Shown here piece by piece: positions 42,535-53,840 of a stretch of DNA of 56,443 bases. The stretch lies in IMG/VR virus record IMGVR_UViG_3300019884_000083, positions 1 to 56,443 of that record. One strand, written 5' to 3'. Within the stretch, counting starts at the first letter, position 1; every line of letters begins with the position of its first letter. Source of the stretch: a virus (lineage: Duplodnaviria; Caudoviricetes). Position numbers and translations under genes: made by a program. The notes under the pieces are model-generated. The model saw only the letters and a list, made by a program, of their open reading frames with translations. It had not been told where the DNA came from and ran no database searches.

Positions 42535-42567
42535 AGCCTCTCCCGGTGCTCTCACTCACCATTCGGT

Positions 42568-42658
42568 GGCTGGGCCGCTGTAGGACGACCCAACCTCCTA
42601 GGCAGTTCTTGACTTCTCCGGACGCCTACAGACGTTTATCGGTCTTGTGTCTCTGCCT
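42568..42658 (-). ncRNA. Predicted pseudoknotted/kissing-loop RNA downstream of tRNA-like element 1
   Basis: AGGCAG/CUGCCU stem encloses CUGUAGG. This is complementary to CCUACAG in the loop of the 10-bp hairpin GGUUGGGUCG/CGGCCCAGCC. The G-U pairs work only on the minus strand. Confidence 0.45.
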
Positions 42659-42660
42659 CG

Positions 42661-42732
42661 TGGGGTGGGCAGGAATCGAACCTGCTACCGACGTCCCTGC
42701 AGCGTCAGCTCTATCCGATGAGCTACCACCCC
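42661..42732 (-). tRNA. tRNA-like RNA 1 (atypical anticodon arm; Cys-GCA in a 9-nt loop, or undetermined)
   Basis: GGGGTGG TA GCTC ATCGGATA GAGC TGACG CTGCAGGGA CGTCG GTA GCAGG TTCGATT CCTGC CCACCCC A. No encoded CCA. Confidence 0.75.
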
Positions 42733-42880
42733 CAAGCACCGGCCTAACCCCTTACCGGCACACGAACCCCACTGCCTAACAGCCTACTTCGGCCCGCCTG
42801 CTTGGACCAGCAACCTCTTCGGCTATTGTTCGCTTCCGCACTCTCCTTCTAGCCCTTCCATCGTGGGGGAAGGGTTGGGC

Positions 42881-43363
42881 TTAGAAGGGAGCTTCCTCCT
42901 CGTCGCCATCGACAACCGGCGCCGGACGGCGCTTGTTACGGGTGGCGGGAGAAGTCTTCTTGGCAGTAGCCTTCTTGGGTGCCGGAGCCTCTTCCTCGTC
43001 CTCTTCCTCAACCTCTTCGGCCACCTTGGCCACCTTCTTGGCGGTGGCCTTCTTAGTGGTGGCCTTCGCCGGGGCAGCCGCCTTTGCAGCCTTCTTGGCC
43101 TTAGGAGTCTCCTCCTCGACACCCTGCTCACGCTCGACCCGGCGCTGCTCCAGAACCTCCTGGTTCTCAGCCGAAGCTTGGAAGATCATCCGCATAGCCG
43201 TAGCCAGCCGCACACCCTCGTTGAACGCATCCTCCTTGGTCTTTGCCCGGCTGGGGTCGAATCCCACCGCATCCTTCAGCCAGGCCGCGAAACGCTCCTG
43301 AAGGTCCGTCGGGGTCTTGTCGAGGTAGGACGACAGGTCCACCTCAGAAACGTCTCGTGCCAC
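42881..43363 (-). CDS. DNA-binding-like protein with K/A-rich and acidic tail
   Basis: YLDKTPTDLQERFAAWLKDAVGF...FQASAENQ, AKKA repeats, ends DEEEAPF. Strong codon bias and its own promoter candidate. Confidence 0.7.
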   Translation of the reverse strand: MARDVSEVDLSSYLDKTPTDLQERFAAWLKDAVGFDPSRAKTKEDAFNEGVRLATAMRMIFQASAENQEVLEQRRVEREQGVEEETPKAKKAAKAAAPAKATTKKATAKKVAKVAEEVEEEDEEEAPAPKKATAKKTSPATRNKRRPAPVVDGDEEEAPF

Positions 43364-43401
43364 TGTCTTTCTCCCTTTTTGTTTTCGTTGTCAACTAGTT
43401 G

Positions 43402-43427
43402 ATCCTAGCTGGACTTTAAAATTGGCG
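43402..43427 (-). promoter_or_regulatory. Putative promoter CGCCAATTTT-N10-TAGGAT
   Basis: TANNNT -10 with the upstream box shared with 20361-20370. Confidence 0.5.
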
Positions 43428-43432
43428 AAAGC

Positions 43433-43612
43433 TTATCGCCTTACCCGTATGGAACGGAGTCTTGTACCCTGTCTCTTTTTAGCACCCTGCAACACCTTTT
43501 GCTGAATCTCTTCTAGCTTCGACTGCCGACCACGTTCACGACGAACACCAAGGTTCCATGCAAACACTGCCACCAGGGAAACCATTGCTAGAATCAAAAG
43601 TGCTTCAGCCAT
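43433..43612 (-). CDS. Single-TM small protein
   Basis: 59 aa MAEALLILAMVSLVAVFAWNLG..., GGAG RBS. Confidence 0.5.
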   Translation of the reverse strand: MAEALLILAMVSLVAVFAWNLGVRRERGRQSKLEEIQQKVLQGAKKRQGTRLRSIRVRR

Positions 43613-45551
43613 TTGTTAGCTCCAACACTTTGCGGAAGTACTCTACTCCACGGCGCTTGTCAAGAAGTCGACGTCCTGCAACAGAACGGTCTGCATTCAC
43701 CAGCGAGATTCCAACATCAACAGAATCCAACGAGCGAAGATAGTGGTACATAACCGGACGAGGTTTGGATACCCGGTGAATCCGATCCTCCAGCTGTATC
43801 ATGGTGTCCGGGTCAGCCTCATCCAGAATCACCATATAATCAGCGGAATCGATGGTAATTGCGGTGCCGCCTGCCTTGATATTCAAGAACATCACGTGTG
43901 GCGACTTCGAGCCTACCGGCTGGTTGAAGGCATCAATGATGGCTCCGCGCTTGGCGCCAACCTGTTCTCCGGTCAGCATACACCCCATCCCGCCCTGGGC
44001 AGCCTTGAGGGCAAAGGAAAACATACGCAAGAGCCTTGTGTAACGGCTGGCAATGATAACCTTGCCGGTGGGCTCGTCCGGAATCCCAAGGCTCTCCAGG
44101 AACTCCTCCACCCAATCAAATTTGTTGGAAGGCAAGGAGGGCGTGAAGTCGCCCTTCTCGTCAAACGCTCCGTAGGCACTGGCGAACTGCTGCATTCGAG
44201 TTATCTCAGCGAGCGTCCCCACTGCGTCAAGGTGGCCATTAGCTAGCTTCGCGGAACCCTCCTGGGCTATCTGCTTGTGGGCCTTGACCTGCGCTGGAGT
44301 CATGGGTAGCCATACCCCCACCGGCGAATTCTCATCGCTCGGGTACAACGGAGTCCCCACATACGCTTTGGGCGGGAGATCTGGCGCCACCTCAGCCTTG
44401 GTGCGCCGGAGCATGATCCCGCTGAGTTCATTCCAAAGCAGTCTCTCGCGGTCGCCACGCAGCTTTCCTACCTCATACCCGGAGTAACCACCCAACTCCC
44501 AATACTGGGCAATCCAGCGCCACTTTCCGGTGTAGACCTTCGGCCGGAGCCAGTTGAGTAGCCCCCACAGCTGGACTGGCTTCGACCGGGCTGGGGTACC
44601 GGAGGAGGCCACACGTAGACCACCCTCTCGCACACGTAGAAGCTCTAACCCTCGGCGACGCTGGGTAGGGGTACCACTCCGCACTACAAGGCTCTCGTGG
44701 CACTCGTCGACCACTACGGCGCCCCACTCGATTTCGAACAGCTGGGGGAAGGTGTGGTCATTCCGGATCTTGGTGTTCTTGGTCTTCGGATGATCGCATC
44801 CTAGGACACTAGTTGGCTTCTTGGTATAGGGGGTTTCCTCCCCGCACTCTACACAAACCCAGAAGGTCTTGGTGAGGACCGCCTCAGGATGGACCGACAC
44901 CAATGTGTGTTCGAGGGTAAAGCCTTTCGCCCCAGCGAGGTTCTGCCGGTAAACCTCGGCTAGGCCGGTCAGCAACGCCTCACGAGTCTTTCGGCCCTCG
45001 GGCAGCTCTAGCACGCTCATCCAGGGCACCCAGCGCGCCGTCTCTCGGGGCCAGACGGTAGTGGCAGCGGTCTTGGGAGAGACGACCAGATATGGCCCCG
45101 GCAATCCACTCTCCACCAAAGCAGCCAGTACCTCCAGGGTCTTCCCGAGGCCAGGATCGTCTGCCAGAATGGTCTCTCGTCCGTCGAGCATGAACCGTGC
45201 GCCTCGCGACTGGTACCGGCGAGCCTCGGTCACGGCCTTGTAAAGCGCCGGAGCACGCTCCTTCAGCCGGGGTAGCTCCACCGCTTCGCCAAGTTTGTTG
45301 AGATGGGACAATTGCTGGCGTCTGGTAGCCTCTTCCCGATACCACTCGGAAAGCGCTTTCCGAACTTTTAGCTGCGGCCCGAACTCCATCCGCAGGCAAA
45401 GACAGCTCTCGATGGTCAACGGGAAGGTCCAGGCGTTAGCCCGCTTACTCCAGTAGTGCCCACTCACCCGCTTGCAGGCTGTGACCGTGCGCGGGTCGTA
45501 CGGCGAGTGCAGATGGATCTTAGTACCCACCAGGTCAATCTCGATCTCCAT
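43605..45551 (-). CDS. SNF2-family DNA helicase
   Basis: ILADDPGLGKT, VVDECH, SSGTP, MLRRTK, IIASRYT and QLEDRIHR. Insert CVECGE...CDH. Confidence 0.92.
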   Translation of the reverse strand: MEIEIDLVGTKIHLHSPYDPRTVTACKRVSGHYWSKRANAWTFPLTIESCLCLRMEFGPQLKVRKALSEWYREEATRRQQLSHLNKLGEAVELPRLKERAPALYKAVTEARRYQSRGARFMLDGRETILADDPGLGKTLEVLAALVESGLPGPYLVVSPKTAATTVWPRETARWVPWMSVLELPEGRKTREALLTGLAEVYRQNLAGAKGFTLEHTLVSVHPEAVLTKTFWVCVECGEETPYTKKPTSVLGCDHPKTKNTKIRNDHTFPQLFEIEWGAVVVDECHESLVVRSGTPTQRRRGLELLRVREGGLRVASSGTPARSKPVQLWGLLNWLRPKVYTGKWRWIAQYWELGGYSGYEVGKLRGDRERLLWNELSGIMLRRTKAEVAPDLPPKAYVGTPLYPSDENSPVGVWLPMTPAQVKAHKQIAQEGSAKLANGHLDAVGTLAEITRMQQFASAYGAFDEKGDFTPSLPSNKFDWVEEFLESLGIPDEPTGKVIIASRYTRLLRMFSFALKAAQGGMGCMLTGEQVGAKRGAIIDAFNQPVGSKSPHVMFLNIKAGGTAITIDSADYMVILDEADPDTMIQLEDRIHRVSKPRPVMYHYLRSLDSVDVGISLVNADRSVAGRRLLDKRRGVEYFRKVLELTNG

Positions 45552-45629
45552 GTTTCCTGAGCCCTCCTGATCCCTAACCGGATTCCCCAGCCCTCGACGC
45601 CCCCCTTCGCCGAGAGCCAGAGGACCAGG

Positions 45630-45776
45630 TCAGCGACCGTTACGGTTACGGTTCTTCCAGCCCTTCCAAAGAGTCCAGACGATTGCGATTGCCAGGACAC
45701 CAAAGACCAGGATTAAGGCGATCGGCTCTACAGGGCGATACTCTAACGGGGGCTGCTGGGATAGATACTGGAGCAT
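45630..45776 (-). CDS. Single-TM microprotein
   Basis: 48 aa containing IALILVFGVLAIAIVWTLW, directly after an AGUGAGAG hairpin. Confidence 0.55.
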   Translation of the reverse strand: MLQYLSQQPPLEYRPVEPIALILVFGVLAIAIVWTLWKGWKNRNRNGR

Positions 45777-45781
45777 GCTAC

Positions 45782-45836
45782 ACCTCTCTCACTTAGGTTC
45801 AACTTCTAACTACAATCCTACCTTACGAAGCTGCAG
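45782..45836 (-). promoter_or_regulatory. Early promoter cassette: CTGCAG, GG-TAGGAT (-10), AGTGAGAG hairpin
   Basis: CTGCAG at 45831-36, -10 at 45815-20, loop at 45786-93 with ACCT/AGGT stem. Confidence 0.6.
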
Positions 45837-45846
45837 ACGGAAAGGA

Positions 45847-45880
45847 AGGAGGGGGAGGACTCTCACCCCCTCCCCCTCCT
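45847..45880 (-). terminator. Intrinsic terminator with GGTGAGAG loop
   Basis: AGGAGGGGGAGG / CCTCCCCCTCCT stem, followed by TCCTTT on the minus strand. Confidence 0.7.
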
Positions 45881-45886
45881 CAAGTC

Positions 45887-46444
45887 TCAGGCCACCCGGA
45901 GCTTCCGGACCGGTGCCTTCACCTTCGCGGCTGCCCGGCGTGCCCGCTCCTTCTCGTTCCGCTCCGCGCGCTTCGCAGCTTCCTCCGCCTCGAGGGCCAG
46001 CTGGATCTTCACAGCTTCCTCTGCTGCCTTCGCGGCCTTCAGCTCAGCTGCCGCCCGCAGATCCACTTCGCGGCCTTCGATCTGGTCCTTCAGCCACTCG
46101 GCAAGGACGAAGCAGCTCACCAGCGCCACTCCGAAGAGGACACCATAGAGGCTATTCGCGGCAATCACGTTCATCGTCAGGCTAAAAGCGCCCATCACAC
46201 ACTGGAGTATGAAGCCAATCTTGTTGGTCCGCTTGCTAAAGTCATCACTCCGCATCACCATTCCGATGATGGCCAGTCCGTCGATCATGAACGGAGCGGC
46301 AAGGGCCTCCACACCCTGCCCGCCCAGCTTCTCAGCAGCTGTCACGATGTGAGCGAAGCTACCGGCGAGAGCGCCGACGAAGTACGCCTTCACGATCGTC
46401 TTGACGATCCGGACCTTCTTGCTGGGCTTCTGGATCTCGTTCAT
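45887..46444 (-). CDS. Four-TM membrane protein with coiled-coil tail (DUF2637-like)
   Basis: Start MNEIQ. GSFAHI...APFMIDGLAI...SLTMNV, then an A/E/K/R tail. Upstream GG-TACAGT -10 at 46489-94. Confidence 0.7.
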   Translation of the reverse strand: MNEIQKPSKKVRIVKTIVKAYFVGALAGSFAHIVTAAEKLGGQGVEALAAPFMIDGLAIIGMVMRSDDFSKRTNKIGFILQCVMGAFSLTMNVIAANSLYGVLFGVALVSCFVLAEWLKDQIEGREVDLRAAAELKAAKAAEEAVKIQLALEAEEAAKRAERNEKERARRAAAKVKAPVRKLRVA

Positions 46445-46769
46445 CTCGGGTTTCCCTTCCCTATCCCCATCTTGCCCTTCCATCAACAACTGTACCCTAT
46501 GCAGATGGAACTGCAAAACAGAAATGGGAAGTTTTTCAAGATTCTTTTGTCAATTCAATTCTTTTACGGAAAGCGCTTTCCCATCCTAATCCCATCGATA
46601 CGATGACCCCACACGAGCAGCGCTTTCTTCCCTTTGATGGCTTATTCAATTCCCAGTTCCCATCCTCCGGATGGGCGCATATCCGGGACTTCACAGCCGC
46701 TCCCCCAGTGCCCATCCAAGGAACACTGCAACGGCGATCAGCACCGTAACCAGGAACCTTAGCATGAAG

Positions 46770-47051
46770 TTACGCATCCGTACCCTCTTCCCAATTCTTT
46801 TGTTCTGCAGATACGTCCGAAAAGAATTTGCTATCATACTTTTGGTTAGATTCTTCGGCAATCCGGTTTTCATCGGTCGTCCCCATCGAGTGCGCGATGT
46901 CCGCCCCCAGCCGGGTTCCATCGGTAGAGAAGCGGAGGCAGGGCTCGCCACCCTGCCCCCACTGGCATGACGGGTCATGCTCGTGCTTCACTTGTGCTTC
47001 CTCATATTCCATAGGGTCAGCCAGATAAGCCCTCCTACGACCAGAACGCAA
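46770..47051 (-). CDS. Hypothetical protein
   Basis: HEHDPSCQWGQGGEPC...AHSM. Probable start MEYEE. Confidence 0.5.
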   Translation of the reverse strand: MRSGRRRAYLADPMEYEEAQVKHEHDPSCQWGQGGEPCLRFSTDGTRLGADIAHSMGTTDENRIAEESNQKYDSKFFSDVSAEQKNWEEGTDA

Positions 47052-47150
47052 ACAGCAAGCCCGGGAAGATTAAGTTCCCGAGACATAGCTCCAATATCAC
47101 CCATTATGCCGAAACCTCCCAACAATTACGCCACGGATCGTACTTGTGTT

Positions 47151-47261
47151 TCATTTGCGTCGCTCCGAGTCCAGCATGCACAGGGCGATAAACGCCAGCA
47201 AAAACAGGGCAACATACCCAAGATCAGAAAGATCCAGTTCTCCAGGTGGCAGGGCCTTCAT
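47151..47261 (-). CDS. Single-TM microprotein
   Basis: 36 aa MKALPPGELDLSDLGYVALFLLAFIALCMLDSERRK. Overlaps the upstream stop. Confidence 0.45.
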   Translation of the reverse strand: MKALPPGELDLSDLGYVALFLLAFIALCMLDSERRK

Positions 47262-48244
47262 CAAGACATAACCTCTTCCAACTTTGGCCCTTTCTTGCCG
47301 CCGCTACCAACCTTAGTAAGGGCAGAGAGCCTGAAGGCACGAAAACCAGTTTGGGGGCAACAAAACCAAAGCACGCGTTCGCCGCTCTGGGACTCTCGAA
47401 GCTCGACCGGCTGACGTCCTCCCGGGACCCCAACGATAGCCGATTCCTCGGTCTCCCGGTACTGGTTGTGCCAGGCCACAGCCTTACCTACTAGGGCTGC
47501 TAGCACCTCCTCATCAGTCGCTAGATTTACGTCGAAAGGCAGTCGGGAACGCTTCGGCTCCGTGGCGCGCTTGCGGAAGTATCGATTGTTGGAAACCTTA
47601 TCCAGTTCCCTGATGCCCTCTTCCGGCTTGCGGGCTGCATACTGCTTGACGGCGCTGGCATTCCGGAGCTTGATGGTGCGATCGGCAATCGTGTACGACG
47701 GCATAGGTTCAATCGTAAGCACACCCTTAGTCCACGAGATCCACAGAACCTCATCTCCCCGCTTCCCGGTAAGCTCCCACACGTCCTCGGTGCTCTCCGT
47801 GCCCTCTGCAAGGATTAGCAAGGTGCTCCAGCCGTGCTGCGTCATCGCCTCGCAGACCGGTGCAGCCTTCGCGCAGGACTTGGAATCCTCTGGCAGCTTA
47901 TCAACCGCGTCCTCCGCCGCGCGCTTCTGCCGCTTCTTCTCCTGTGCGACTGCGATCCGGTCCTCACGGGTCTCCGTCGCCTCGGCACGCGACTCGCGCT
48001 CCTTCCGGAGGATGACCTCCAGGAGCTTGCCCTTTGGGCAATCGTTCGCGGACTTCTGTCCGAACCTCTCCAGCAGTGCCTTGCGCAGCTGTGGCTGGTT
48101 CATCTGACCGTACCTCTGCGCGTACTCCGGCACATCAACCTTCTCCACGCCGCCCTTGGGCGGGAGCGGAGTCTTCTGCGCGTGTTTGGTACGCTTCTCC
48201 GCAGCAGCTTTGCGGAGTCCTGCCTTGTTAGCCGTGGTAGTCAT
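47261..48244 (-). CDS. Hypothetical basic protein with C-terminal WYL/SH3-like motif
   Basis: 327 aa with a K-rich N-terminus. C-terminal RVLWFCCPQTGFRAFRLSALTKV. Confidence 0.6.
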   Translation of the reverse strand: MTTTANKAGLRKAAAEKRTKHAQKTPLPPKGGVEKVDVPEYAQRYGQMNQPQLRKALLERFGQKSANDCPKGKLLEVILRKERESRAEATETREDRIAVAQEKKRQKRAAEDAVDKLPEDSKSCAKAAPVCEAMTQHGWSTLLILAEGTESTEDVWELTGKRGDEVLWISWTKGVLTIEPMPSYTIADRTIKLRNASAVKQYAARKPEEGIRELDKVSNNRYFRKRATEPKRSRLPFDVNLATDEEVLAALVGKAVAWHNQYRETEESAIVGVPGGRQPVELRESQSGERVLWFCCPQTGFRAFRLSALTKVGSGGKKGPKLEEVMS

Positions 48245-48265
48245 TCCCCTTGCCCCTTCTCTCTT

Positions 48266-48355
48266 TTAGCCGATCCAAATCCATGCGATCCGAACTGCAG
48301 CGGCCAGCAATACCATTACCGTCACGCCCCAAGTGGACTCAAAGATCTTTCCCAT
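48266..48355 (-). CDS. Single-TM microprotein
   Basis: 29 aa MGKIFESTWGVTVMVLLAAAVRIAWIWIG, GGGAGG RBS. Confidence 0.45.
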   Translation of the reverse strand: MGKIFESTWGVTVMVLLAAAVRIAWIWIG

Positions 48356-48435
48356 TACCCTCCCCCTTCTCTCCTTCCGCAATCTAAGTCCCCTGGGCGG
48401 TGCCGGTCCCCCGTACCCGGCGCCACCCTCCGGCC

Positions 48436-48546
48436 TCAGAACTTGACGAAGAAGCCCTCAATCCCGCCCGGCGTGACTGCGGCCGTGATAGCTGCGAGGA
48501 TGTACGCCACCAGGATGGCGCAAAAGATAGCCATAGCCTTCTTCAT
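48436..48546 (-). CDS. Single-TM microprotein
   Basis: 36 aa MKKAMAIFCAILVAYILAAITAAVTPGGIEGFFVKF, GGGGAG RBS. Confidence 0.55.
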   Translation of the reverse strand: MKKAMAIFCAILVAYILAAITAAVTPGGIEGFFVKF

Positions 48547-48562
48547 TTTTCTCCCCTTTCCC

Positions 48563-48766
48563 TTACTGGTTGATGTCCACTGATGGAACGTCTACACTAG
48601 GATCCTGAAGCCAGTCCACGAAAGCGTGCCCCGGACCGCTGTCCAGCCACCAGATAAACCCCAGAATGGAGCCTATACCGAATAGCAACGACCATCCCTT
48701 CTTCCCAGCTTTCCCGGCGATTATTGAACACACCGCCGCAAGTACGATGATGATGAATATCCCCAT
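48563..48766 (-). CDS. Two-TM small membrane protein
   Basis: Start MGIFII, two hydrophobic segments. Confidence 0.6.
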   Translation of the reverse strand: MGIFIIIVLAAVCSIIAGKAGKKGWSLLFGIGSILGFIWWLDSGPGHAFVDWLQDPSVDVPSVDINQ

Positions 48767-48853
48767 CGATTCCCTTCCTAGCCACCCCACCCTGAGGTGC
48801 CTGGGCGTGGCTCCGAGCTACCCGCACCATAGCTCGGCTCCCGCCCCCCGGCC

Positions 48854-49012
48854 TCAGTTCACCAGAGAGGAAAAGAATCCACCTACCCCCTCCGAAACGG
48901 CAACAGCCGTATTCCCTAGTGTCCTAGCAACCTCTGCAGCCATATCTGACCGGAAAGCCACGAAAAACACCAGAAAGGCAATGATGCCCCACGTAAGGAT
49001 TTTCTTAAGCAT
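48854..49012 (-). CDS. Small membrane protein
   Basis: 52 aa MLKKILTWGIIAFLVFFVAFRSDMAAEVARTLGNTAVAVSEGVGGFFSSLVN. Confidence 0.6.
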   Translation of the reverse strand: MLKKILTWGIIAFLVFFVAFRSDMAAEVARTLGNTAVAVSEGVGGFFSSLVN

Positions 49013-49040
49013 TTCCCTTACCCCCTCAACAATAGTTGGA

Positions 49041-49259
49041 TTATTCAGTTCCGCCCAGGGTCTGGTGGAACCAGACCAGGAACTTATCCACCAAATCGGC
49101 CGGGCCGCTCACCTCAGCCCGGGGGTGCCCGTTCCCGTCCAGCCCCTCAAGGACTCGACTGGCTAGGCCGGGGAATCCCTCAACGGTCTCGGCCAAAGCC
49201 TCCTCCGCAGTCTCGCCCGGGTAGACCACGAAGCTAATCTCTGCGGTCTTCTCGCTCAT
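49041..49259 (-). CDS. Hypothetical protein
   Basis: 72 aa with GGAG RBS directly after an AGUGAGAG hairpin. Confidence 0.65.
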   Translation of the reverse strand: MSEKTAEISFVVYPGETAEEALAETVEGFPGLASRVLEGLDGNGHPRAEVSGPADLVDKFLVWFHQTLGGTE

Positions 49260-49356
49260 CTCCAGCCCCTCTCACTAGGCTAACTGCAGGAAACTCTACT
49301 CCAGCAGCAATCAAGAACGGAAGAGAGAGGGGCCAAAAACCCTCCCCTATTCACTT

Positions 49357-49488
49357 TCACTTGGAGATCTCGGCAGAGTACTCATCTTCCTCGGCCCAGC
49401 AGGCGTCCCACTCGGCGTCAGTCTCGTGGTGACCGTAGCACATCTCGCACTGCTCGTCGATCTGCTCGTAACGCTTCTCGTTTCCCAT
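49357..49488 (-). CDS. Small acidic Cys/His protein
   Basis: 43 aa MGNEKRYEQIDEQCEMCYGHHETDAEWDACWAEEDEYSAEISK, after a -10 (TAATAT at 49530-35) and an AGUGAGAG hairpin. Confidence 0.55.
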   Translation of the reverse strand: MGNEKRYEQIDEQCEMCYGHHETDAEWDACWAEEDEYSAEISK

Positions 49489-49586
49489 TTCTTAGCCTCT
49501 CTCACTAGGCTTTCCCTTACCTGACAACAATATTACCCTAAGATGGGGGCTTACGTCTACAAAAATCTTGGGGGAGGGCCGAAGCC

Positions 49587-50264
49587 CTACTTGGAGTAGA
49601 TCAAGCGAAGTGCCTCCGCCACGTTCCGCACCTTGGAGGATTTACCGTTCTTGGTGAACCGAGCCTCAGCGTAATCGTAGCGACCTTCAGCATCCCAGGC
49701 GAGATGGAGCGTAGCGTGCCCGAGGTCAATATCCAGTATCGCCGCACCCAGTCCCAGGATCTGTAGCTTAGCGCGCTTCTCGCCTACGTTCGCCGCACGA
49801 AGGACAACATGAGCCTTAAGCTCGCCCGGTGCCCGGAGCGGCACGTTGATCTTCTGACCCTTCCGGCTGATGCGCTCGCCGGTCGTGGCGGTGCGGGTCT
49901 TGGCGACCTTCAGCGCCTCGTTCAACTCCGGGTGGCAAATCCAGCATCCATCCTGCTCAAGCCGGATTGCATCAAGGATCATCCCGCGCAGTTCTGCACT
50001 CTTGTGCTTCGCGGCGTTCTTGATCCCGGCCTTCGGAGCGAGCTTCCGCAGCTCCACAGCCCCGGTCACGAAGACCTTGGCGCCGGTACGGTCACGGGTA
50101 AACTCATTGACCTTCGCCCCAAGCACGGTCAGCACGTCATGCGCTCCGTCGCTGTGCGTGTTCTCCCATCCGCCCTCCACGTAGCACGGCATGCAGGCGT
50201 CCTGGATACCGGCGTTCGGGTCTTCCGGGCGATTGTTGCAGATGTTGCAGATCTTCTTGGCCAT
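49587..50264 (-). CDS. Zinc-binding hypothetical protein
   Basis: Start MAKKICNIC. CMPC...WENTHSD...H...CWICHP. Confidence 0.7.
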   Translation of the reverse strand: MAKKICNICNNRPEDPNAGIQDACMPCYVEGGWENTHSDGAHDVLTVLGAKVNEFTRDRTGAKVFVTGAVELRKLAPKAGIKNAAKHKSAELRGMILDAIRLEQDGCWICHPELNEALKVAKTRTATTGERISRKGQKINVPLRAPGELKAHVVLRAANVGEKRAKLQILGLGAAILDIDLGHATLHLAWDAEGRYDYAEARFTKNGKSSKVRNVAEALRLIYSK

Positions 50265-50568
50265 TTCCCTCACCGCTCTCACTCGGTCGGTCTTGCTTAC
50301 AACTACATCCTACCCCATCATTCTGCAGATGGCGACTCGATTGCAAAGATTTTTTCCCAAACCTCTCCGCCAGCAGAAAAGAAAGATAGAGAGCAAAGAA
50401 GCTAATTCCCCAAGCAGATATCCCGCTCTGTGCGGTCTGCCATCCAAACCAGATCCAGCCTAGCTGCGCGAAGATACCAACCCGGTATCCTAGGCTGGGG
50501 CGGTACCTCATCAAAGCTACGGTCAACAATCCTAGGATGGTGAGTCCCCACGGCACCAATTGTATCAT
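50137..50568 (-). CDS. Small multi-TM membrane protein (3' extent uncertain)
   Basis: Start MIQLVPWG with GGGGAG RBS and three hydrophobic segments. The frame then runs through the next promoter. Confidence 0.45.
   Translation of the reverse strand: MIQLVPWGLTILGLLTVALMRYRPSLGYRVGIFAQLGWIWFGWQTAQSGISAWGISFFALYLSFLLAERFGKKSLQSSRHLQNDGVGCSCKQDRPSESGEGNGQEDLQHLQQSPGRPERRYPGRLHAVLRGGRMGEHAQRRSA
50272..50328 (-). promoter_or_regulatory. Early promoter cassette (near-duplicate of 52090-52136)
   Basis: CTGCAG at 50323-28, GGGG-TAGGAT at 50307-12, GTAG..TTGTAAGCAA, ACCG-AGTGAGAG-CGGT hairpin. Confidence 0.65.
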
Positions 50569-50641
50569 ATCGATTCTCCCCAGGCTCTCACGCGGCAGCG
50601 AGCGCCCACGACTCAAAGTCTATGAGCGCCCACGCCTTCCT

Positions 50642-51691
50642 TTAGTTGCCTAGTGCGATGGCGGTCCCACTAGGGCTTCCGGGCTCGTACGGTGCCTCGA
50701 CTCGCCGTGCGGGCTCGGTAGTTCTTTCAATCTGGATCTTATCGGCTGCCGCCCGGCCAGCTGCAGATCCACGAACTGCTGCCTCTGAATTATGGCGTCG
50801 ATCATATGCATCTTGGTCGGCCTTGGTCCACTTGCGCTCCTTTGGCTTCGGCAGGTTGCCAACATCCTCTCGGAAGCGCTCCGCAGCTACCCGGCGAGCA
50901 TCGGGGTGAGCATCGGGGAAACGGTCCCAGAACGCTTCCTTCACCCGGTCTTCGCGGCCCTTCAGAACCAAAGCACCACCCTGGGAATCCACGGCGTCTC
51001 GAGCGGTCCGCAGACGTTCCGCAAACCGATAGCCAAAGAACTCCGCGTACTTCTCGCGGTATACGATTTTGTTGATGCCCTTTCCGGCCACGATTGGATC
51101 CTCGTCACGCTCACGGCAGGCTGCAGCGTAAAGCTTTCCCACCCGTGCGTGCGCGCTATGACCGGCCCTACCAAGATCAGATCCCCATAGCAGGAAAGCG
51201 ATACGATTCCGCTCTAGGCCAGAGTTGCGGAGTCGATACACATTCTCTTGATCTGACAGATCTGGATTCACTTTTGGCTCGAGCTGGCCTACCATCGTCA
51301 TCCAAGCCGACTGGTACAGCCCCTCAACAAGTCGAATATCCGACGCGTACCCAACGGCCGTCACGAAAATGTCGTCCCCCACAAGCTTCGACCGATAGAG
51401 CACTCCGAAGTGGTTGCAGGCCCATCCCCAAAGTCGCAGATGCTCCTGGTAAAATTGGGAAGCGTACGTGCTGACCTTGATGTCGCGAACTACTGGCAGA
51501 ATGGAGCTCGAGTCTTGGGCGATAAGGGATTCTTCGGCCAGCTGATACTTGCGCCTAAGCTCCTCCGCCTTCGTGTGGAGGGATGCTGCTTCCTCGGGGA
51601 ACTCGGTGCTCTCAGCCTTCGCTAGCAAGCCACGGATACGTGCTGCCATTTTCTCCAGCGTCTCGGCGCTGAAGCTCGCGCTCTCACTCAC
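50642..51691 (-). CDS. DUF2786-domain protein
   Basis: RIRGLLAKAESTEFPEEAASLHTKAEELRRKYQL N-terminal motif, VGYASDI and GRAAAD. Confidence 0.75.
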   Translation of the reverse strand: MSESASFSAETLEKMAARIRGLLAKAESTEFPEEAASLHTKAEELRRKYQLAEESLIAQDSSSILPVVRDIKVSTYASQFYQEHLRLWGWACNHFGVLYRSKLVGDDIFVTAVGYASDIRLVEGLYQSAWMTMVGQLEPKVNPDLSDQENVYRLRNSGLERNRIAFLLWGSDLGRAGHSAHARVGKLYAAACRERDEDPIVAGKGINKIVYREKYAEFFGYRFAERLRTARDAVDSQGGALVLKGREDRVKEAFWDRFPDAHPDARRVAAERFREDVGNLPKPKERKWTKADQDAYDRRHNSEAAVRGSAAGRAAADKIQIERTTEPARRVEAPYEPGSPSGTAIALGN

Positions 51692-51718
51692 GAGTCTTCC
51701 CTTCTCTTGAGGCTATAG

Positions 51719-51797
51719 CGGACGGGCTTTCCTCCCCAACACCCGGATGCGAGACGAGATGGCTTGCGACCATCCCCGCAACGCTGGTACCCGTCCG
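51719..51797 (-). ncRNA. Predicted long irregular hairpin RNA downstream of tRNA-like element 2
   Basis: Nested stems CGGACGGG/CCCGUCCG, CCAGCG/UGUUGG, UGCG/CGCA and GGGAUGG/CCAUCUC, capped by a C-GCAA-G tetraloop. Confidence 0.4.
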
Positions 51798-51809
51798 GTT
51801 GGTCCTCCG

Positions 51810-51881
51810 CTCCCCTGCTAGGTATCGAACCTAGCTCCTGCCCTCGGCCGAGGAAGCAGGCGAGCCCATGCTCACAGGGGA
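51810..51881 (-). ncRNA. tRNA-like RNA 2 (no anticodon loop)
   Basis: TCCCCTG T GAGC ATGG GCTC G CCTGC TTCCTCGGCCGAGG GCAGG AG CTAGG TTCGATA CCTAG CAGGGGA G. Perfect acceptor and T arms, minimal D arm. Confidence 0.7.
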
Positions 51882-51927
51882 ATCAGGCCGGGGGAACTTC
51901 TTCGAGCGGTCCGCACCCGGCTTTCAT

Positions 51928-52080
51928 TCAGTTCTTGGCCTCGACGTCGCCACCCCAAGCGTCCTCACCAGCGGTGTTCAGCTCAGCAATGCGATTCTCG
52001 TAAGAAGCCTCGCTCAGATATACCCCATCCAGGTTAGCATCGCCATCGCGAGTACCCGTCCAAACAACCCATACCTTCAT
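51928..52080 (-). CDS. Small hypothetical protein
   Basis: 50 aa MKVWVVWTGTRDGDANLDGVYLSEASYENR..., AAGGA RBS directly after an AGUGAGAG hairpin. Confidence 0.6.
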   Translation of the reverse strand: MKVWVVWTGTRDGDANLDGVYLSEASYENRIAELNTAGEDAWGGDVEAKN

Positions 52081-52089
52081 TTTCCTTCT

Positions 52090-52136
52090 CCGCTCTCACT
52101 CGGTTGCTTACAATCTACATACTACCCCAACTGCAG
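52090..52136 (-). promoter_or_regulatory. Early promoter cassette
   Basis: CTGCAG at 52131-36, GGGG-TAGTAT at 52119-24, CCG-AGTGAGAG-CGG hairpin. Confidence 0.65.
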
Positions 52137-52161
52137 TCGGAAGGGAAGCCCAACTCCAAAA

Positions 52162-52572
52162 TTATCCCTCGCAGATCAGGCTACCTGCGCCTTGCAGTTC
52201 TTTCTGGGTACCCCTCCGAGCTGGCCGGTCCACTCGACACTTAAGGTTTCCCTTATTCGGCATCTTCGACATCATCGGTTGGTTAAAGCGCGCCACCACG
52301 ACGGCTCCGCGAGGAACGATGAAGGTCATGATCCAAGGAGAGGTCACCAGCTCATCCTCCCAGATCATCGCGCCCTCGGCAAAGACCTTCACGTTGATCG
52401 GATAGGTCCCGCGCTCCGGGTAAAACTGCGCGTGAACCGTTACATTTTCGTTAACATCACTTCTTGGGTCCGGACGTCCCCACTCGTCGTATCCACCGAA
52501 AGCGATTGCGGCCACCACGACCACAATCGCTATCGTCCAGAATCCGACTTTTACCGGGGTCAGCAGATTCAT
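52162..52572 (-). CDS. Membrane-anchored MmpS-like beta protein
   Basis: Start MNLLTP (ATGA overlap). TM helix, then TSPWIMTF...LKCRVD...LIC. Confidence 0.5.
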   Translation of the reverse strand: MNLLTPVKVGFWTIAIVVVVAAIAFGGYDEWGRPDPRSDVNENVTVHAQFYPERGTYPINVKVFAEGAMIWEDELVTSPWIMTFIVPRGAVVVARFNQPMMSKMPNKGNLKCRVDRPARRGTQKELQGAGSLICEG

Positions 52573-53186
52573 GCCCAGTTTACCTTCTTTGCACATACCG
52601 GTCCCATAGCGCGCTCGATACTCTCCTCGCGAGTAAGGGTCAGACCGCAACGGACGCAAACCCCATAGAGGGCACCATATTGCTTGGCCTCCTCGAGAGT
52701 CATCCGCATCGAAGCGGTCAACCTACGAAGCGGAGCCTTCCCCATATAGATGAAATCCGCCTTTACCTCAATCTCCTTGCCCCGGCTGATCTTTGTGTAC
52801 GGATCGGCCAGCATGACGAGCTTCTTCGTCACCTGCTGATTGGCACCGTGAACAGTGTGATAGACCTTGAAGATTTCACCCGTTTGGGGGATTCTGTACA
52901 CTCCGTCTTCAGTGACCGGACTCGTCACACTGCAGGGGGTTGGCTCGTTCTCCCAACGGTCCCGGGCAGCCCCAAAAGAAAGGGCTCCGGTCCGCACCTC
53001 GTGGGCCTCTTGTGCCCGAGCGTCCTCATATCCGCGCTCCTCGAAGAAACGCTCAGTCGCTCGCTCGGCCTCATGCTCCTGCCGGTTACCGGCCTCATCG
53101 GCATAGCATCGCCGAACTTCATCAACACTGCTGTGCCGGTCGTGACAACTGCCGCACTTGATGCTTGGCCTGGTCATCGTACTCAT
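52569..53186 (-). CDS. Zinc-finger protein (C-terminal DUF6011-like)
   Basis: CGSCHDRH...C, EDGVYR...IFKV and GVCVRCGLTLTREESIERAMGPVC. GAGGAGG RBS. Confidence 0.7.
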   Translation of the reverse strand: MSTMTRPSIKCGSCHDRHSSVDEVRRCYADEAGNRQEHEAERATERFFEERGYEDARAQEAHEVRTGALSFGAARDRWENEPTPCSVTSPVTEDGVYRIPQTGEIFKVYHTVHGANQQVTKKLVMLADPYTKISRGKEIEVKADFIYMGKAPLRRLTASMRMTLEEAKQYGALYGVCVRCGLTLTREESIERAMGPVCAKKVNWA

Positions 53187-53197
53187 CGGGCACCTCC

Positions 53198-53249
53198 TCG
53201 GTTCTCTCACTCACCCGAACAGCACCAATCTTACGCCATGAATCTGCAG
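53198..53249 (-). promoter_or_regulatory. First early promoter cassette
   Basis: CTGCAG at 53244-49, TAAGAT at 53228-33, AGTGAGAG at 53204-11 within a TCGG/CCGA stem. Confidence 0.6.
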
Positions 53250-53259
53250 AAGGAAAGGG

Positions 53260-53296
53260 AGCAGCCCGGCCGGGTGAGAGTCCGGTCCGGGCTGCT
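53260..53296 (-). terminator. Terminator ending the late/lysis operon
   Basis: AGCAGCCCGG(A)CCGG / CCGGCCGGGCTGCT stem, loop ACTCTCAC on the minus strand, followed by CCCTTTCCTT. Confidence 0.65.
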
Positions 53297-53389
53297 AGGG
53301 GAGGGTGAATGCGCTGGAAGGGCGCCTACCCAAATCTTCTGCGTTTACCTTCGGCTAGGTACAAAGCTACGCCAGTCAGGAAACTGCCG

Positions 53390-53785: not shown

Positions 53786-53840
53786 GTTCTATCTCCTTCT
53801 TTTGTTGGAACTTTCCTTCCTGTGAAGTCTAACGGGGCCA

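What the first reader, a model, noticed from the sequence alone, without database searches (positions are those of the whole stretch)
42543..53217. Eight RNA hairpins with an invariant AGUGAGAG loop and compensating stems at early-gene 5' ends: candidate boxB-like or translational-operator system
Seen: on the transcribed (minus) strand AGTGAGAG occurs at 42549, 45786, 49269, 49499, 50276, 51681, 52093 and 53204, all within ~11 kb. I did not notice it elsewhere. The flanks differ in sequence yet pair: GGTG/CACC, ACCT/AGGT, AGCCT/GGGCT, AGCCT/AGGCT, ACCG/CGGT, CTCGTG/CGCGAG, CCG/CGG and TCGG/CCGA (this last one interrupted). The G-U pairs work only on the minus strand. Six copies lie between a TANNNT -10 box and the RBS, and the 51681 copy buries the predicted GTG start codon. 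Known: lambda boxB/nut and HK022 put are promoter-proximal RNA hairpins, and cluster K mycobacteriophage start-associated sequences are linear repeats. Inference: a loop-specific RNA-binding protein or RNA polymerase contact coordinates early expression (antitermination, 5' stabilisation or translational control).
Basis: partly seen in the sequence, partly recalled or inferred. Interest (0 to 1): 0.88.

Follow-up and report, generated by a model that had tools for sequence, protein, structure and literature searches.

The report
Phage leader hairpins with antisense partner
An uncultured soil phage puts the same small RNA hairpin just before the start codon of eight early genes, and it also carries one strong hairpin whose tip is the exact mirror of that tag, so a single small RNA may switch all these genes together.

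Summary
AGTGAGAG occurs 9 times, all on the transcribed (minus) strand. Eight copies are hairpin loops with different, pairing stems; the ninth (39028) is coding and unpaired. Two relatives at 60-70% protein identity carry 16 more copies. On all 24, the three inner pairs are paired in 21-23 of 23 distinct rows, with 2-5 pair types each.

The hairpins track start codons rather than promoters. An ATG lies 8-17 nt after the loop in 20 of 24, while by my reading 9 lack a -10 box.

The new result is a partner. One strong hairpin (window 53260-53296, -30 kcal/mol), just after the lysis genes, shows CUCUCAC in its loop, the complement of the conserved core GUGAGAG. Four relatives keep this loop on different stems. 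A further relative has GCGAGA leader loops and a UCUCGC partner loop. Phages with other leader motifs carry matching complements.

Best reading (about 0.55): a roughly 105-nt phage RNA pairs loop-to-loop with the early leaders and controls their translation.

No expression data exist, and one prediction I made failed. A lambda-type boxB role is not supported.

This scan has noted similar mirror-hairpin layouts on other phage DNA. I found no publication of the idea.

The parts
53197..53219 (-). Leader hairpin 1. Loop AGUGAGAG at 53204-53211, stem UCGG/CCGA or GGU/ACC. TAAGAT box at 53228-53233. ATG at 53186 of a DUF6011 protein (52569-53186).
52090..52103 (-). Leader hairpin 2. Loop at 52093-52100, stem CCG/CGG. 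TAGTAT box at 52119-52124. ATG at 52080 of a 50-aa ORF.
51671..51699 (-). Leader hairpin 3. Loop at 51681-51688, stem CUCGUG/CGCGAG plus outer pairs. No -10 box seen. ATG at 51649 (31 nt after the loop) of a DUF2786 protein (50642-51649).
50272..50287 (-). Leader hairpin 4. Loop at 50276-50283, stem ACCG/CGGU. TAGGAT box at 50307-50312. ATG at 50264 of a 225-aa cysteine-rich protein (49587-50264).
49494..49511 (-). Leader hairpin 5. Loop at 49499-49506, stem AGCCU/AGGCU. TAATAT box at 49530-49535. ATG at 49488 of a 43-aa ORF.
49262..49283 (-). Leader hairpin 6. Loop at 49269-49276, stem UUAGCCU/GGGCUGG with G-U pairs. TAGAGT box at 49293-49298. ATG at 49259 of a 72-aa ORF.
45777..45803 (-). 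Leader hairpin 7. Loop A+AGUGAGAG (motif at 45786-45793), stem ACCU/AGGU. TAGGAT box at 45815-45820. ATG at 45776 of a 48-aa ORF that heads the helicase block (43605-45551).
42544..42561 (-). Leader hairpin 8. Loop at 42549-42556, stem UGGUG/CACCG. No -10 box seen; it lies after tRNA-Leu (42660-42732). ATG at 42534 of a Cas4/RecB-type exonuclease (41380-42534).
45846..45881 (-). Terminator-like hairpin (14-bp stem, -29.3 kcal/mol) whose 8-nt loop is GGUGAGAG, the same 7-nt core in the sense direction. Orthologous hairpins in G001 (loop AGUGAGAG) and G002 (GGUGAGAG).
53260..53296 (-). Anti-loop hairpin. 14 pairs with one bulge, -30 kcal/mol, z -6.1. Loop ACUCUCAC, with CUCUCAC at 53274-53280, the exact complement of the leader-loop core GUGAGAG. 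It lies between the last lysis-module gene and the first early promoter.
53249..53357 (-). Putative anti-loop RNA of about 105 nt. The ends are inferred from the promoter-like box and the hairpin, not observed. It holds pyrimidine-rich stretches (CCCUUCC, CCCUCCCC) 5' of the hairpin.
   Evidence: inference
53364..53392 (-). Promoter-like element of the anti-loop RNA. TAGCGGCA box at 53385-53392 (its TAG is the stop codon of the 131-aa gene), a 17-nt spacer, then TAGCTT at 53364-53369. One of 6 sense-strand TAGCGGCA boxes in the window (0 antisense).
39028..39035 (-). Ninth exact AGTGAGAG. It is inside a coding frame, has no stem, and is not counted as a member.

Best explanation
The eight hairpins are start-codon-associated tags in the 5' leaders of early genes of an uncultured actinophage-like virus.

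Anatomy of the tag: the stem is free to vary and serves only to present the loop. The invariant loop core GUGAGAG is the target of a phage-encoded RNA.

The partner RNA: I infer it to be about 105 nt long (window about 53357-53249, minus strand). It would start at a promoter-like TAGCGGCA-N17-TAnnnT element that overlaps the stop codon of the last lysis-module gene. This promoter-like class also precedes replication and later genes but none of the tagged early genes. The RNA ends in a very stable hairpin whose 8-nt loop, A+CUCUCAC, mirrors the leader loops, which are A+GUGAGAG.

Proposed action: loop-loop (kissing) pairing of 7 bp takes place 4-13 nt upstream of the Shine-Dalgarno sequence or overlapping it. 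This puts a bulky RNA inside the 30S landing zone. It probably shuts down translation, and perhaps stability, of all tagged early messages together once the partner RNA accumulates. That would be an RNA-made early-to-late switch.

Shown: the hairpins, their covariation, their tie to ATG codons, the complementary hairpin with its conservation and co-variation, and the conserved promoter-like box.

Inferred: that the partner is transcribed as a separate RNA, that the two RNAs pair in the cell, and the sign (repression) and timing of the effect.
For: 1. One reader for many sites. All 8 loop positions are invariant in 24 of 24 copies from three phages whose adjacent protein is only 60-69% identical, while the stems differ. 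A model built on these 24 finds 4 further copies at E <= 4e-4 in two sequences not used to build it (L043, L052), all on the transcribed strand.

2. The core is 7 nt. The G002 ortholog of copy 1 has UGUGAGAG, and terminator loops have GGUGAGAG.

3. The exact complement CUCUCAC sits in the loop of one strong hairpin at the same place in W, G001, G002, L052 and G004. That place is after the last late gene and before the first early promoter. The stems differ, energies are -29 to -32 kcal/mol for the four folded (W, G001, G002, L052), z -5.3 to -7.3, and the loops are ACUCUCAC, AUCUCUCAC, AAACUCUCAC and ACUCUCAC; the G004 hairpin, also ACUCUCAC, was folded only in a script. The chance of the complement falling in any hairpin loop with a stem of 8 bp or more is about 0.01-0.04 per genome.

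4. Co-variation in L049. All 4 leader loops read GCGAGA, and its boundary hairpin loop reads AUCUCGCAA. So U-A has become C-G.

5. A second contact. In L049 and G004 the same putative RNA also holds a 10-nt complement of the Shine-Dalgarno-containing leader motif (CGUUCCCUUC against GAAGGGAACG; GGUCCCUUCG against CGAAGGGACC). It lies 5' of the anti-loop, as antiparallel pairing requires.

6. A prediction made before looking held. G005 has ...UUCG and G006 has ...UUCA in that stretch. The base before GAAGGGACC is C in 7 of 10 leaders in G005 (T in 1). In G006 it is T in 7 of 11 and C in 0. Fisher p = 0.0014.

7. Unrelated leader motifs have their own mirror hairpins. L053 has GGGACACGAC (9 copies) and GUCGUGUCCC in two hairpins just upstream. 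L051 has GAGAUGGGGA (about 10 copies) and UCCCCAUCUC in one hairpin.

8. A TAGC(G/C)G-16..18-TAnnnT element stands upstream of the anti-loop hairpin in all six genomes examined. TAGCGGCA occurs 6 times in sense and 0 in antisense in the window, against 0.86 expected. Five of the six have TAnnnT at 17-18 nt, and none precedes a tagged leader.

9. Position. The ATG lies 8-17 nt after the loop in 20 of 24 copies, and all 20 starts are ATG.
Against: No transcript data exist. Only soil DNA runs hold this sequence, so the partner RNA, its ends and any pairing are unobserved.

The helix is short: 7 bp here and only 5-6 bp in G005/G006.

One prediction failed. From the G005/G006 anti-loop CUCUCAA I expected UUGAGAG leader loops. 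The transcribed strand has 0 TTGAGAG. The leaders there read AGAGAG or GAGAGAG, which pair with UCUCUC only in a register shifted by one, or as 5 bp in the old register.

No mirror was found in several relatives. L047 has UGAAGUU loops and none in 20.6 kb, and L046 has only a weak AACUUC candidate. None was found in the G003/L055/L058/L060 type or in the 8-kb L061.

In L052, three copies (10424, 15709, 19214) have no clear stem.

The hairpin may simply be the terminator of the late operon. The downstream tract is C/U-rich with only 3-4 consecutive U.

Most stem differences lie between sites in one genome. Orthologous sites in different phages usually keep the same stem, so the number of independent compensatory events is smaller than the cell counts suggest.

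The W, G001, G002 and L052 genomes are related, so their shared loop is not four independent observations.
Confidence: 0.55

Rival explanations
1. A loop-specific RNA-binding protein, from the phage or the host, reads the AGUGAGAG loop and controls translation or stability of the early messages. On this view the CUCUCAC hairpin is unrelated, or acts as a competitor.
For: An invariant 8-nt loop on a free stem is the classic look of a protein operator. The first loop base A is also conserved in 24 of 24 copies although it lies outside the 7-nt complement. The copies in L052 without stems would suit a single-strand binder.
Against: This does not explain why the exact complement is kept in one strong hairpin loop in five genomes. 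It also does not explain why that loop changes with the leaders in L049, or why unrelated leader motifs also have mirror hairpins. No RNA-binding domain was seen in the 40 window proteins scanned, although most small early proteins matched no family at all.
Confidence: 0.2
2. The hairpin acts in cis without a specific partner. It could be a 5' stabiliser, or a ribosome standby or extended Shine-Dalgarno element. The purine-rich loop GAGAG could touch the pyrimidine-rich 3' end of 16S rRNA.
For: With a -10 box 16-23 nt upstream, the hairpin starts within a few bases of the inferred 5' end of the transcript. In copies with only 8-10 nt to the ATG, the loop end plus the 3' arm (GAGAG-AGG, GAGAG-GGG) is the only Shine-Dalgarno-like sequence. 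GGUGAGAG also occurs unpaired as part of ribosome sites in G002.
Against: A stabiliser or standby site needs no invariant 8-mer. AGUG has no pairing partner in the canonical 16S 3' end (recalled, not tested against the unknown host). By my reading, nine copies are not at a 5' end. The mirror hairpin remains unexplained.
Confidence: 0.1
3. It is a DNA-level site: an asymmetric operator of the L5 stoperator type, or a DNA hairpin, read by a DNA-binding protein. The reversed copy in the boundary hairpin would be one more site.
For: All copies share one orientation relative to transcription, as stoperators do. One reversed copy exists.
Against: Stems of unrelated sequence pair in 21-23 of 23 rows, and 7 cells use G-U, which is A-C on the other strand. 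A duplex-DNA reader gives no reason for that, or for the reversed copy to sit exactly in a hairpin loop in five genomes. No phage RNA polymerase or other large enzyme that might read DNA hairpins was found among the large ORFs.
Confidence: 0.05
4. It is a boxB/nut- or put-like signal that modifies RNA polymerase so that it reads through the terminators between early cassettes.
For: Terminator-like hairpins do separate the early cassettes. One of them carries the same loop core. UGAGAG could hold a GAGA (GNRA-type) tetraloop closed by U-G (my reading).
Against: There are 8-10 copies per genome. The tie is to the ATG (20 of 24) and not to promoters (9 of 24 lack a -10 box). The loop is 8 nt. No N-like or Q-like protein was recognised. 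The mirror hairpin is unexplained.
Confidence: 0.05

Closest known systems
[quoted passage not shown]
   Same: A phage-private motif repeated 10-19 times in one orientation. It occurs only before non-structural genes, a few bases upstream of mostly ATG start codons, often behind a repeated promoter, with an unknown reader ('either RNA or protein', PMC3203893). Cluster K1 phages have one unexplained copy in the opposite orientation. In Anaya I found it (GGCCTCCTATCCC at 59870) in a 385-nt non-coding gap, in a predicted hairpin loop.
   Different: Here the conserved part is the loop of a hairpin whose stem covaries, 8-17 nt before the ATG, and the Shine-Dalgarno sequence itself varies. SAS is a linear 13-mer that contains the Shine-Dalgarno sequence, and the authors saw no support for RNA pairing in ESAS repeats. 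There is no sequence similarity. Relatives of the window (L049, G004-G006) combine both: a loop hairpin plus a SAS-like motif.
Antisense RNAs that start pairing by loop-loop kissing: plasmid R1 CopA/CopT, ColE1 RNA I/RNA II, phage P1/P7 c4 RNA, P4 CI RNA, P22 sar (recalled from general knowledge; no paper read here)
   Same: A stable hairpin presents a short complementary loop to a hairpin loop in the target leader next to the ribosome site. The partner loops co-vary between relatives. The control is of phage gene expression.
   Different: The known cases act on one or two sites, usually transcribed from the opposite strand of the same locus or processed from the same leader. Here one RNA, encoded elsewhere on the same strand, would address 8-10 separate messages through a shared tag, that is, a regulon. 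Transcription and pairing are not shown.
Lambdoid nut boxB hairpins bound by N (recalled)
   Same: A small leader hairpin with a conserved purine-rich loop on the early transcripts of a phage.
   Different: boxB is a 5-nt GNRA-like loop, one per early operon, promoter-proximal, and acts on RNA polymerase. Here the loop is 8 nt, there are 8-10 copies, and the tie is to start codons, also where no promoter is seen.
PeSL (promoter-early stem-loop) cassettes of T4-type phages RB49 and phi1 (PMC2839356, abstract read)
   Same: Repeated small cassettes of promoter plus stem-loop flank small accessory early genes. The window's early region has the same terminator-promoter-gene modular look.
   Different: PeSL stem-loops are effective terminators and recombination substrates. 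The hairpins here are weak (-2.6 to -13 kcal/mol), lie after the promoter and next to the ribosome site, and have an invariant loop.
T4 RegA translational repressor and RegB endoribonuclease (recalled)
   Same: The logic is the same: one phage factor turns off many early messages at their ribosome sites as infection proceeds.
   Different: Those factors are proteins that act on unstructured sequence. Here the candidate factor is an RNA and the target is a presented loop.

Membership tests
Lambda-type nut/boxB antitermination site | Hairpin with a 5-nt GNRA-like loop | tested here: not met
   The loop is 8 nt (9 or 13 nt in two copies) in the folds and in the consensus structure.
Lambda-type nut/boxB antitermination site | One site per early operon, just downstream of the promoter | tested here: not met
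   8 copies within 11 kb. 14 of 24 copies follow a TAnnnT box, 9 do not, and 1 is a terminator loop (my reading). The ATG lies 8-17 nt after the loop in 20 of 24.
Lambda-type nut/boxB antitermination site | N-type protein with an arginine-rich motif, and a boxA partner sequence | not tested
   No family match of that kind among the 40 window proteins scanned. boxA was not searched for.
Start-associated sequences (Cluster K type) | Repeated asymmetric motif in one orientation, just upstream of start codons of non-structural genes, with ATG preferred | tested here: met
   9 of 9 copies on one strand. 8 of 8 hairpin copies precede an ATG by 9-31 nt in the early, replication and recombination region. 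All 20 close starts in three phages are ATG.
Start-associated sequences (Cluster K type) | Linear 13-bp motif that contains the Shine-Dalgarno core and matches GGGATAGGAGCCC | tested here: not met
   The conserved part is an 8-nt hairpin loop without that sequence. The Shine-Dalgarno sequences downstream differ between copies.
Start-associated sequences (Cluster K type) | A single copy in the opposite orientation, not at a gene start (noted for K1 phages in PMC3203893) | tested here: met
   CUCUCAC lies in the loop of the hairpin at 53260-53296, which is non-coding. The Anaya counterpart was checked.
Kissing-loop antisense RNA control | Complementary sequences exposed in hairpin loops of regulator and target | tested here: met
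   Leader loops are A+GUGAGAG and the partner loop is A+CUCUCAC: 7 contiguous Watson-Crick pairs.
Kissing-loop antisense RNA control | Regulator and target co-vary between relatives | tested here: inconclusive
   For: L049 has GCGAGA with UCUCGC. The SAS flank is C with G in G004/G005 and U with A in G006. Different motif pairs occur in L053 and L051. Against: the predicted UUGAGAG is absent in G005/G006, which keep only 5-6 bp. No mirror was found in L047 or the G003 type.
Kissing-loop antisense RNA control | The target site overlaps or abuts the ribosome binding site | tested here: met
   The loop ends 8-17 nt before the ATG in 20 of 24 copies.
Kissing-loop antisense RNA control | The regulator is transcribed and binds the target | not testable with these tools
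   No RNA run holds the sequence. Only a conserved promoter-like box argues for transcription.
L5-type stoperators (DNA sites) | Duplex-DNA recognition with no requirement for flanking pairing | tested here: not met
   Flanks covary to keep pairing, and 7 cells use G-U.
Any Rfam family | Match to a curated covariance model | tested here: not met
   Only the tRNA matched in the whole window at gathering score. There was no match at E <= 1 in 51600-53420.

The most novel reading that the evidence does not exclude
Start-associated tags of actinophages are addresses for a phage-encoded master RNA. The tags include the SAS of Cluster K mycobacteriophages, unexplained since 2011. One small RNA, made from a later promoter class, carries the mirror of the tag in a hairpin loop and sometimes a second mirror of the Shine-Dalgarno motif. 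By kissing all tagged leaders at once it turns the early gene set off. This would be a widespread RNA-only temporal switch in which tag and mirror co-evolve as a private code in each phage lineage.
Probability: 0.4. Interest if true: 0.9.

Novelty: new variant of a known kind. Interest (0 to 1): 0.8.

Why it matters
Repeated motifs in front of early genes of actinobacteriophages have been catalogued since 2011 without a known reader. Papers from 2024 and 2025 still call their role ill-defined.

This locus gives an unusually clean case. The loop is invariant, the stems covary, and there is a single conserved hairpin with the mirror loop. The mirror changes together with the tag in related phages.

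If the pairing is real, it names the missing reader as an RNA and gives a simple mechanism for shutting off early genes. It also gives a rule for finding such regulators in any phage genome: look for the one reversed copy of the tag inside a strong hairpin.

It further suggests a direct experiment in cultured Cluster K phages grown on Mycobacterium smegmatis.

Orthogonal tag and mirror pairs could serve as compact translation switches for engineering in Actinobacteria.

Tried and rejected
**Searches that found nothing**
- No RNA holder is listed for the sequence. The search returned 3 soil DNA runs, one of them probably the source sample, so expression could not be examined.
- Near-identity search of 42000-54000 against 50,697 phage records: no match.
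- tblastn of the 225-aa early protein against the same records: no match.
- The nearest cultured relatives are distant: exonuclease 43% to Microbacterium phages, helicase 37% to Cluster D mycobacteriophages.
- Rfam: nothing except the tRNA.
- Earlier notes of this scan for this genome or for look-alike stretches: none.

**Scans with limited yield**
- Exact-pattern scans of IMG/VR with two conserved hairpin-plus-flank strings found only the two relatives already known.
- The A2 protein scan of IMG/VR added one genome.
- The sigma-70 consensus scan was uninformative for these promoters, which have only a -10 box.
- Two crude hairpin enumerations were too noisy to use. I replaced them with a stricter count, which misses bulged stems such as the window's own anti-loop hairpin.

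**Negative results**
- The prediction of UUGAGAG leader loops in G005/G006 failed.
- No mirror was found for the UGAAGUU loops of L047, and only a weak candidate in L046.
- No mirror was found for the UACCCGGGAGGG leaders of G003, L055, L058 and L060, or in the 8-kb L061.

**Readings considered and dropped**
- The plus-strand ORF 53309-53677 as a reverse gene led by the reversed motif. It is not conserved in G001. The minus-strand 131-aa frame shows third-position changes between the three phages (my reading; proteins).
- The CGUGAGAG variant at 50585-50591. It folds into a stem and was not counted.
- The local fold around the Anaya anti-SAS is no better than shuffles (z 0.4), so the Cluster K parallel is only a lead.
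- An N4-type DNA-hairpin promoter. No large polymerase was found among the ORFs scanned, and Shine-Dalgarno sequences lie between hairpin and ATG.

Supplementary files of the papers were not available. The SAS site tables for other Cluster K phages are held there.

Full report
**What the window is.** The window is a whole IMG/VR virus record of 56,443 bp, estimated 86% complete. By a simple longest-ORF tiling, 66 of 87 chosen frames are on the minus strand. The few long plus-strand frames I tested have no family match. No integrase was seen.

Read along the minus strand, the order of genes is:
- a lysis module: GDSL lipase 55408-56235, holin family 53841-54158, and a 131-aa membrane protein 53390-53785;
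- a run of small early cassettes;
- helicase (43605-45551), tRNA-Leu (42660-42732) and a Cas4/RecB-type exonuclease (41380-42534);
- DNA polymerase III alpha, primase and ThyX;
- virion genes, including the tape-measure type protein at 4650-6914.

The nearest cultured phages are distant actinophages (43% and 37% identity). An actinobacterial host is therefore likely but not shown.

**The observation.** AGTGAGAG occurs 9 times on the minus strand and never on the plus strand. Shuffles give a mean of 2.18, and 0 of 100 reach 9. Eight copies lie at the listed places. The ninth (39028) is inside a gene and has no stem.

Each of the eight is flanked by a short inverted repeat of different sequence. 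Single folds give the expected loop in 7 of 8. The 53204 copy prefers UCGG/CCGA with a 13-nt loop. Energies are only -2.6 to -13 kcal/mol, so these stems are marginal on their own.

**Relatives and covariation.** A scan with the helicase found two complete relatives, G001 and G002, and a distant one, G003. The adjacent 225-aa early protein is 60-69% identical between the window, G001 and G002.

G001 has 10 exact copies and G002 has 7, each set on one strand. G003 has one, in a gene.

I aligned 24 hairpin copies (8 + 9 + 7), leaving out the stemless coding copies of the window, G001 and G003. All eight loop positions are invariant.
- Pairs 8-21 and 9-20 are formed in 23 of 23 distinct rows, with 2 and 5 pair types.
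- Pair 10-19 is formed in 21 of 23, and pair 7-22 in 18 of 23.
- The covariation score is 0.72, against 0.22 for shuffled partners (0 of 500 reach it) and 0.05-0.16 for slid partners.
- RNAalifold gives the same 4-bp stem and 8-nt loop.
- Seven cells of the inner pairs are G-U, so the fold belongs to the transcribed strand.

One caveat applies. Most stem differences are between sites. Orthologous sites in different phages often share a stem.

A covariance model built on the 24 copies finds nothing else below E = 0.5 in the four genomes. In sequences it was not built from, it finds two copies in L043 and two in L052 at E <= 4e-4, all on the transcribed strand.

**What the hairpins are attached to.** An ATG that opens a frame of at least 30 codons lies 8-17 nt after the loop in 20 of 24 copies. 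All 20 starts are ATG.

The exceptions are:
- the hairpin before the DUF2786 gene (31 nt in the window, 43 nt in G001, and none found near the record end in G002);
- one G001 copy that is the loop of a terminator-like hairpin.

By my reading, 14 copies follow a TAnnnT box, which lies 16-23 nt upstream of the loop in the window. Nine do not: they follow a stop codon, a terminator-like hairpin, a tRNA or a tRNA-like piece.

The hairpin is therefore start-associated, not promoter-associated. This speaks against a nut/boxB or put-like role.

The GTG inside the 51681 loop is not the start. In G001 it opens only 53 codons.

**The partner.** The G002 ortholog of copy 1 has UGUGAGAG. A 14-bp terminator-like hairpin upstream of the helicase block has GGUGAGAG in the window (45846-45881) and G002, and AGUGAGAG in G001. 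The conserved core is thus the 7-mer GUGAGAG.

Its complement CTCTCAC occurs on the transcribed strand 3, 2 and 2 times in the window, G001 and G002. One occurrence in each sits at the same place: the loop of a strong hairpin between the 131-aa gene and the first early promoter.

In the window this hairpin is 53260-53296. It has 14 pairs with one bulge, -30 kcal/mol, z -6.1, and the loop ACUCUCAC. The stems differ between phages while the seven loop letters do not.

A metagenome scan with the 225-aa protein gave 20 loci.
- L052 (35% identity) has GUGAGAG leaders and a hairpin of -32.1 kcal/mol with the loop ACUCUCAC, 238 nt before its first leader.
- G004/L064 (31%) has GGUGAGAG and AGAGAG leader loops and a long hairpin with the loop ACUCUCAC.

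A stricter count estimates the chance that a given complement falls in the loop of any hairpin with a stem of 8 bp or more at 0.01-0.04 per genome. That count misses bulged stems, including the window's own.

The minus-strand 131-aa frame is the real gene there. Its C-terminal codons differ at third positions between the three phages, and the opposite-strand ORF is not kept in G001. So the reversed motif is not the leader of a reverse gene.

**Co-variation of tag and mirror.**
- L049 (30%) has four leader hairpins with variable stems and the loop (C/U/A)GCGAGA. Its boundary hairpin (-27.2 kcal/mol) has the loop AUCUCGCAA. The U-A pair of the window type has become C-G.
- L049 and G004 also carry a linear Shine-Dalgarno-containing motif after the hairpin (ACGAAGGGAACGA; CGAAGGGACC). 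Both have a 10-nt exact complement of it about 40-66 nt upstream of the anti-loop, in the order that antiparallel pairing needs.
- A pattern scan brought in G005 and G006. Their anti-loop reads CUCUCAA, and their second stretch reads GGUCCCUUCG in G005 and GGUCCCUUCA in G006.

Before looking at their leaders I made two predictions.
- The first, UUGAGAG leader loops, failed. There are 0 TTGAGAG on the transcribed strand. The leaders read AGAGAG or GAGAGAG, which match UCUCUC in a register shifted by one (6 bp), or 5 bp in the old register.
- The second held. The base before GAAGGGACC is C in 7 of 8 leaders in G004 and 7 of 10 in G005. In G006 it is T in 7 of 11 and C in 0 of 11. Fisher p = 0.0014 for C against T between G005 and G006.

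More distant loci use quite different leader motifs.
- L053 has ...GGGACACGAC (9 copies) and two hairpins just upstream that contain GUCGUGUCCC.
- L051 has GAGAUGGGGA (about 10 leader copies) and one hairpin that contains UCCCCAUCUC.

Negative cases are L047 and L046 (UGAAGUU loops, with no mirror or only a weak one), the G003/L055/L058/L060 type, and the short L061.

**Is the mirror a separate RNA?** Upstream of the anti-loop hairpin, all six genomes examined have TAGC(G/C)G, then 16-18 nt, then TAnnnT. In the window this is TAGCGGCA at 53385-53392, whose TAG is the stop codon of the 131-aa gene, and TAGCTT at 53364-53369.

TAGCGGCA occurs 6 times in sense and 0 in antisense in the window, against 0.86 expected. 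Five of the six have TAnnnT at 17-18 nt, against about 1.1 such combinations in shuffles.

These boxes stand before replication and later genes. One is followed by an ATG 7 nt after the -10 box, as in leaderless messages. None precedes a tagged leader.

I therefore infer a second, later promoter class. One member of it would drive an RNA of about 105 nt that ends in the anti-loop hairpin. This is inference only. The sigma-70 scan was uninformative, and no RNA data exist.

**Mechanism proposed.** Both loops have the form 5'-A plus seven complementary bases. As I recall, this is a geometry seen in known kissing complexes. The target loop ends 8-17 nt before the ATG, inside the region a 30S subunit covers.

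Binding of a roughly 105-nt RNA with a 14-bp stem there should block initiation. In some lineages a second contact on the Shine-Dalgarno motif would help. If the RNA is made from the later promoter class, the result would be shut-off of the tagged early genes as infection proceeds.

The sign and timing are not shown. Activation or an effect on decay cannot be excluded. The sense-oriented terminator loop with the same core (45846-45881) would also be a target, and its role is open.

**Comparison with what is known.** The closest described thing is the start-associated sequence system of Cluster K mycobacteriophages and the similar motif of Cluster EF Microbacterium phages. Their function is still called ill-defined or unclear (passages read).

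[quoted passage not shown] In Anaya I found 16 forward sites with two or fewer mismatches and one reversed site at 59870, in a 385-nt non-coding gap. It lies in the 10-nt loop of a predicted hairpin. The local fold is no better than shuffles, so this is a lead only.

The mechanism resembles kissing-loop antisense control (CopA/CopT, RNA I/RNA II, P1 c4, P4 CI; recalled). It differs in addressing many messages through a shared tag. PeSL cassettes share only the modular promoter plus stem-loop layout (abstract read).

Four full-text searches found no paper that proposes an antisense RNA for such tags. Supplements could not be read.

Earlier notes of this scan describe mirror hairpins of ribosome-site tags, and invariant-loop leader hairpins, in other phages. 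They are AI notes and not independent evidence. One of them is marked as partly fallen. I had checked Anaya before seeing the note that mentions Cluster K.

**Verdict.** The idea of a shared trans-acting reader is supported, while the boxB analogy is not. The best-supported reader is an RNA encoded 50 nt upstream of the first tagged cassette. I rate this a new variant of known kinds (start-associated tags; kissing-loop antisense control). Interest is high, because it offers a testable answer to an open question in actinophage biology.

Noticed in passing
window 51650-51940 (minus strand): A stretch of about 290 nt without a gene, upstream of leader hairpin 3. It contains a tRNA-like T-arm and acceptor end (CTAGGTTCGATACCTAG CAGGGGA). 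G002 has a similar piece, and several distant relatives have a T-arm-like piece directly before a leader motif (L055 11409, L058 4354, G003 35034 and 59229). ARAGORN and Rfam call no tRNA there.
   Followed up: partly
window minus-strand positions rc 3052, 14962, 20440, 25120, 33180, 35006 (for example window 53385-53392 and 31317-31324): A TAGCGGCA box, 6 in sense and 0 in antisense. Five have TAnnnT at 17-18 nt. This looks like a second promoter-like class, in front of replication and later genes, with orthologous sites in G001 and G002. One is followed by an ATG 7 nt after the -10 box (leaderless type).
   Followed up: partly
L046, L047, L049, L051, L053, L061, L064, L102, L103, G003: Each related lineage has its own leader tag between a TAnnnT box and the ATG. 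The tags are UGAAGUU-loop hairpins plus CAAGGGGA, GCGAGA-loop hairpins plus ACGAAGGGAACGA, AGAGAUGGGGAUCUC, UGCAAGGGACACGAC, CGACAGCCGGGAGGC, and CAACUACCCGGGAGGGU. Several place the Shine-Dalgarno sequence in a small hairpin loop (GCC-GGGA-GGC, ACCC-GGGA-GGGU, GAGAU-GGGG-AUCUC).
   Followed up: partly
window 45846-45881 (minus); G001 rc 50384; G002 4909: The terminator-like hairpin before the helicase-block promoter carries the leader-loop core in the sense direction ((A/G)GUGAGAG) in all three phages. Its role is unexplained. It could be a further target or a decoy.
   Followed up: partly
window, early promoters (for example 53240-53245, 52131-52136, 50322-50327, 45831-45836): CTGCAG recurs 6-10 nt upstream of several early TAnnnT boxes, preceded by a C/T-rich tract (tccctttcc) that follows the preceding terminator-like hairpin. 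The spacing is not that of a -35 box.
   Followed up: no
L065+L066 (Mycobacterium phage Anaya) 59682-60066: The single reversed SAS of this Cluster K1 phage (59870) lies in a 385-nt non-coding gap between gp96 and gp97, which begins with a strong terminator-like hairpin. It sits in the 10-nt loop of a predicted hairpin.
   Followed up: partly
G001 rc 47128 and 47394: Two neighbouring leader hairpins share 20 identical upstream bases (agggtaatcaacagaagcct). This looks like a recent local duplication of a leader cassette in front of two different small ORFs.
   Followed up: no
window 40970-41368 (minus): A 132-aa protein with weak matches, below the curated cut-offs, to helix-hairpin-helix and RNA polymerase alpha C-terminal domain models. 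It lies just downstream of one TAGCGGCA box.
   Followed up: no
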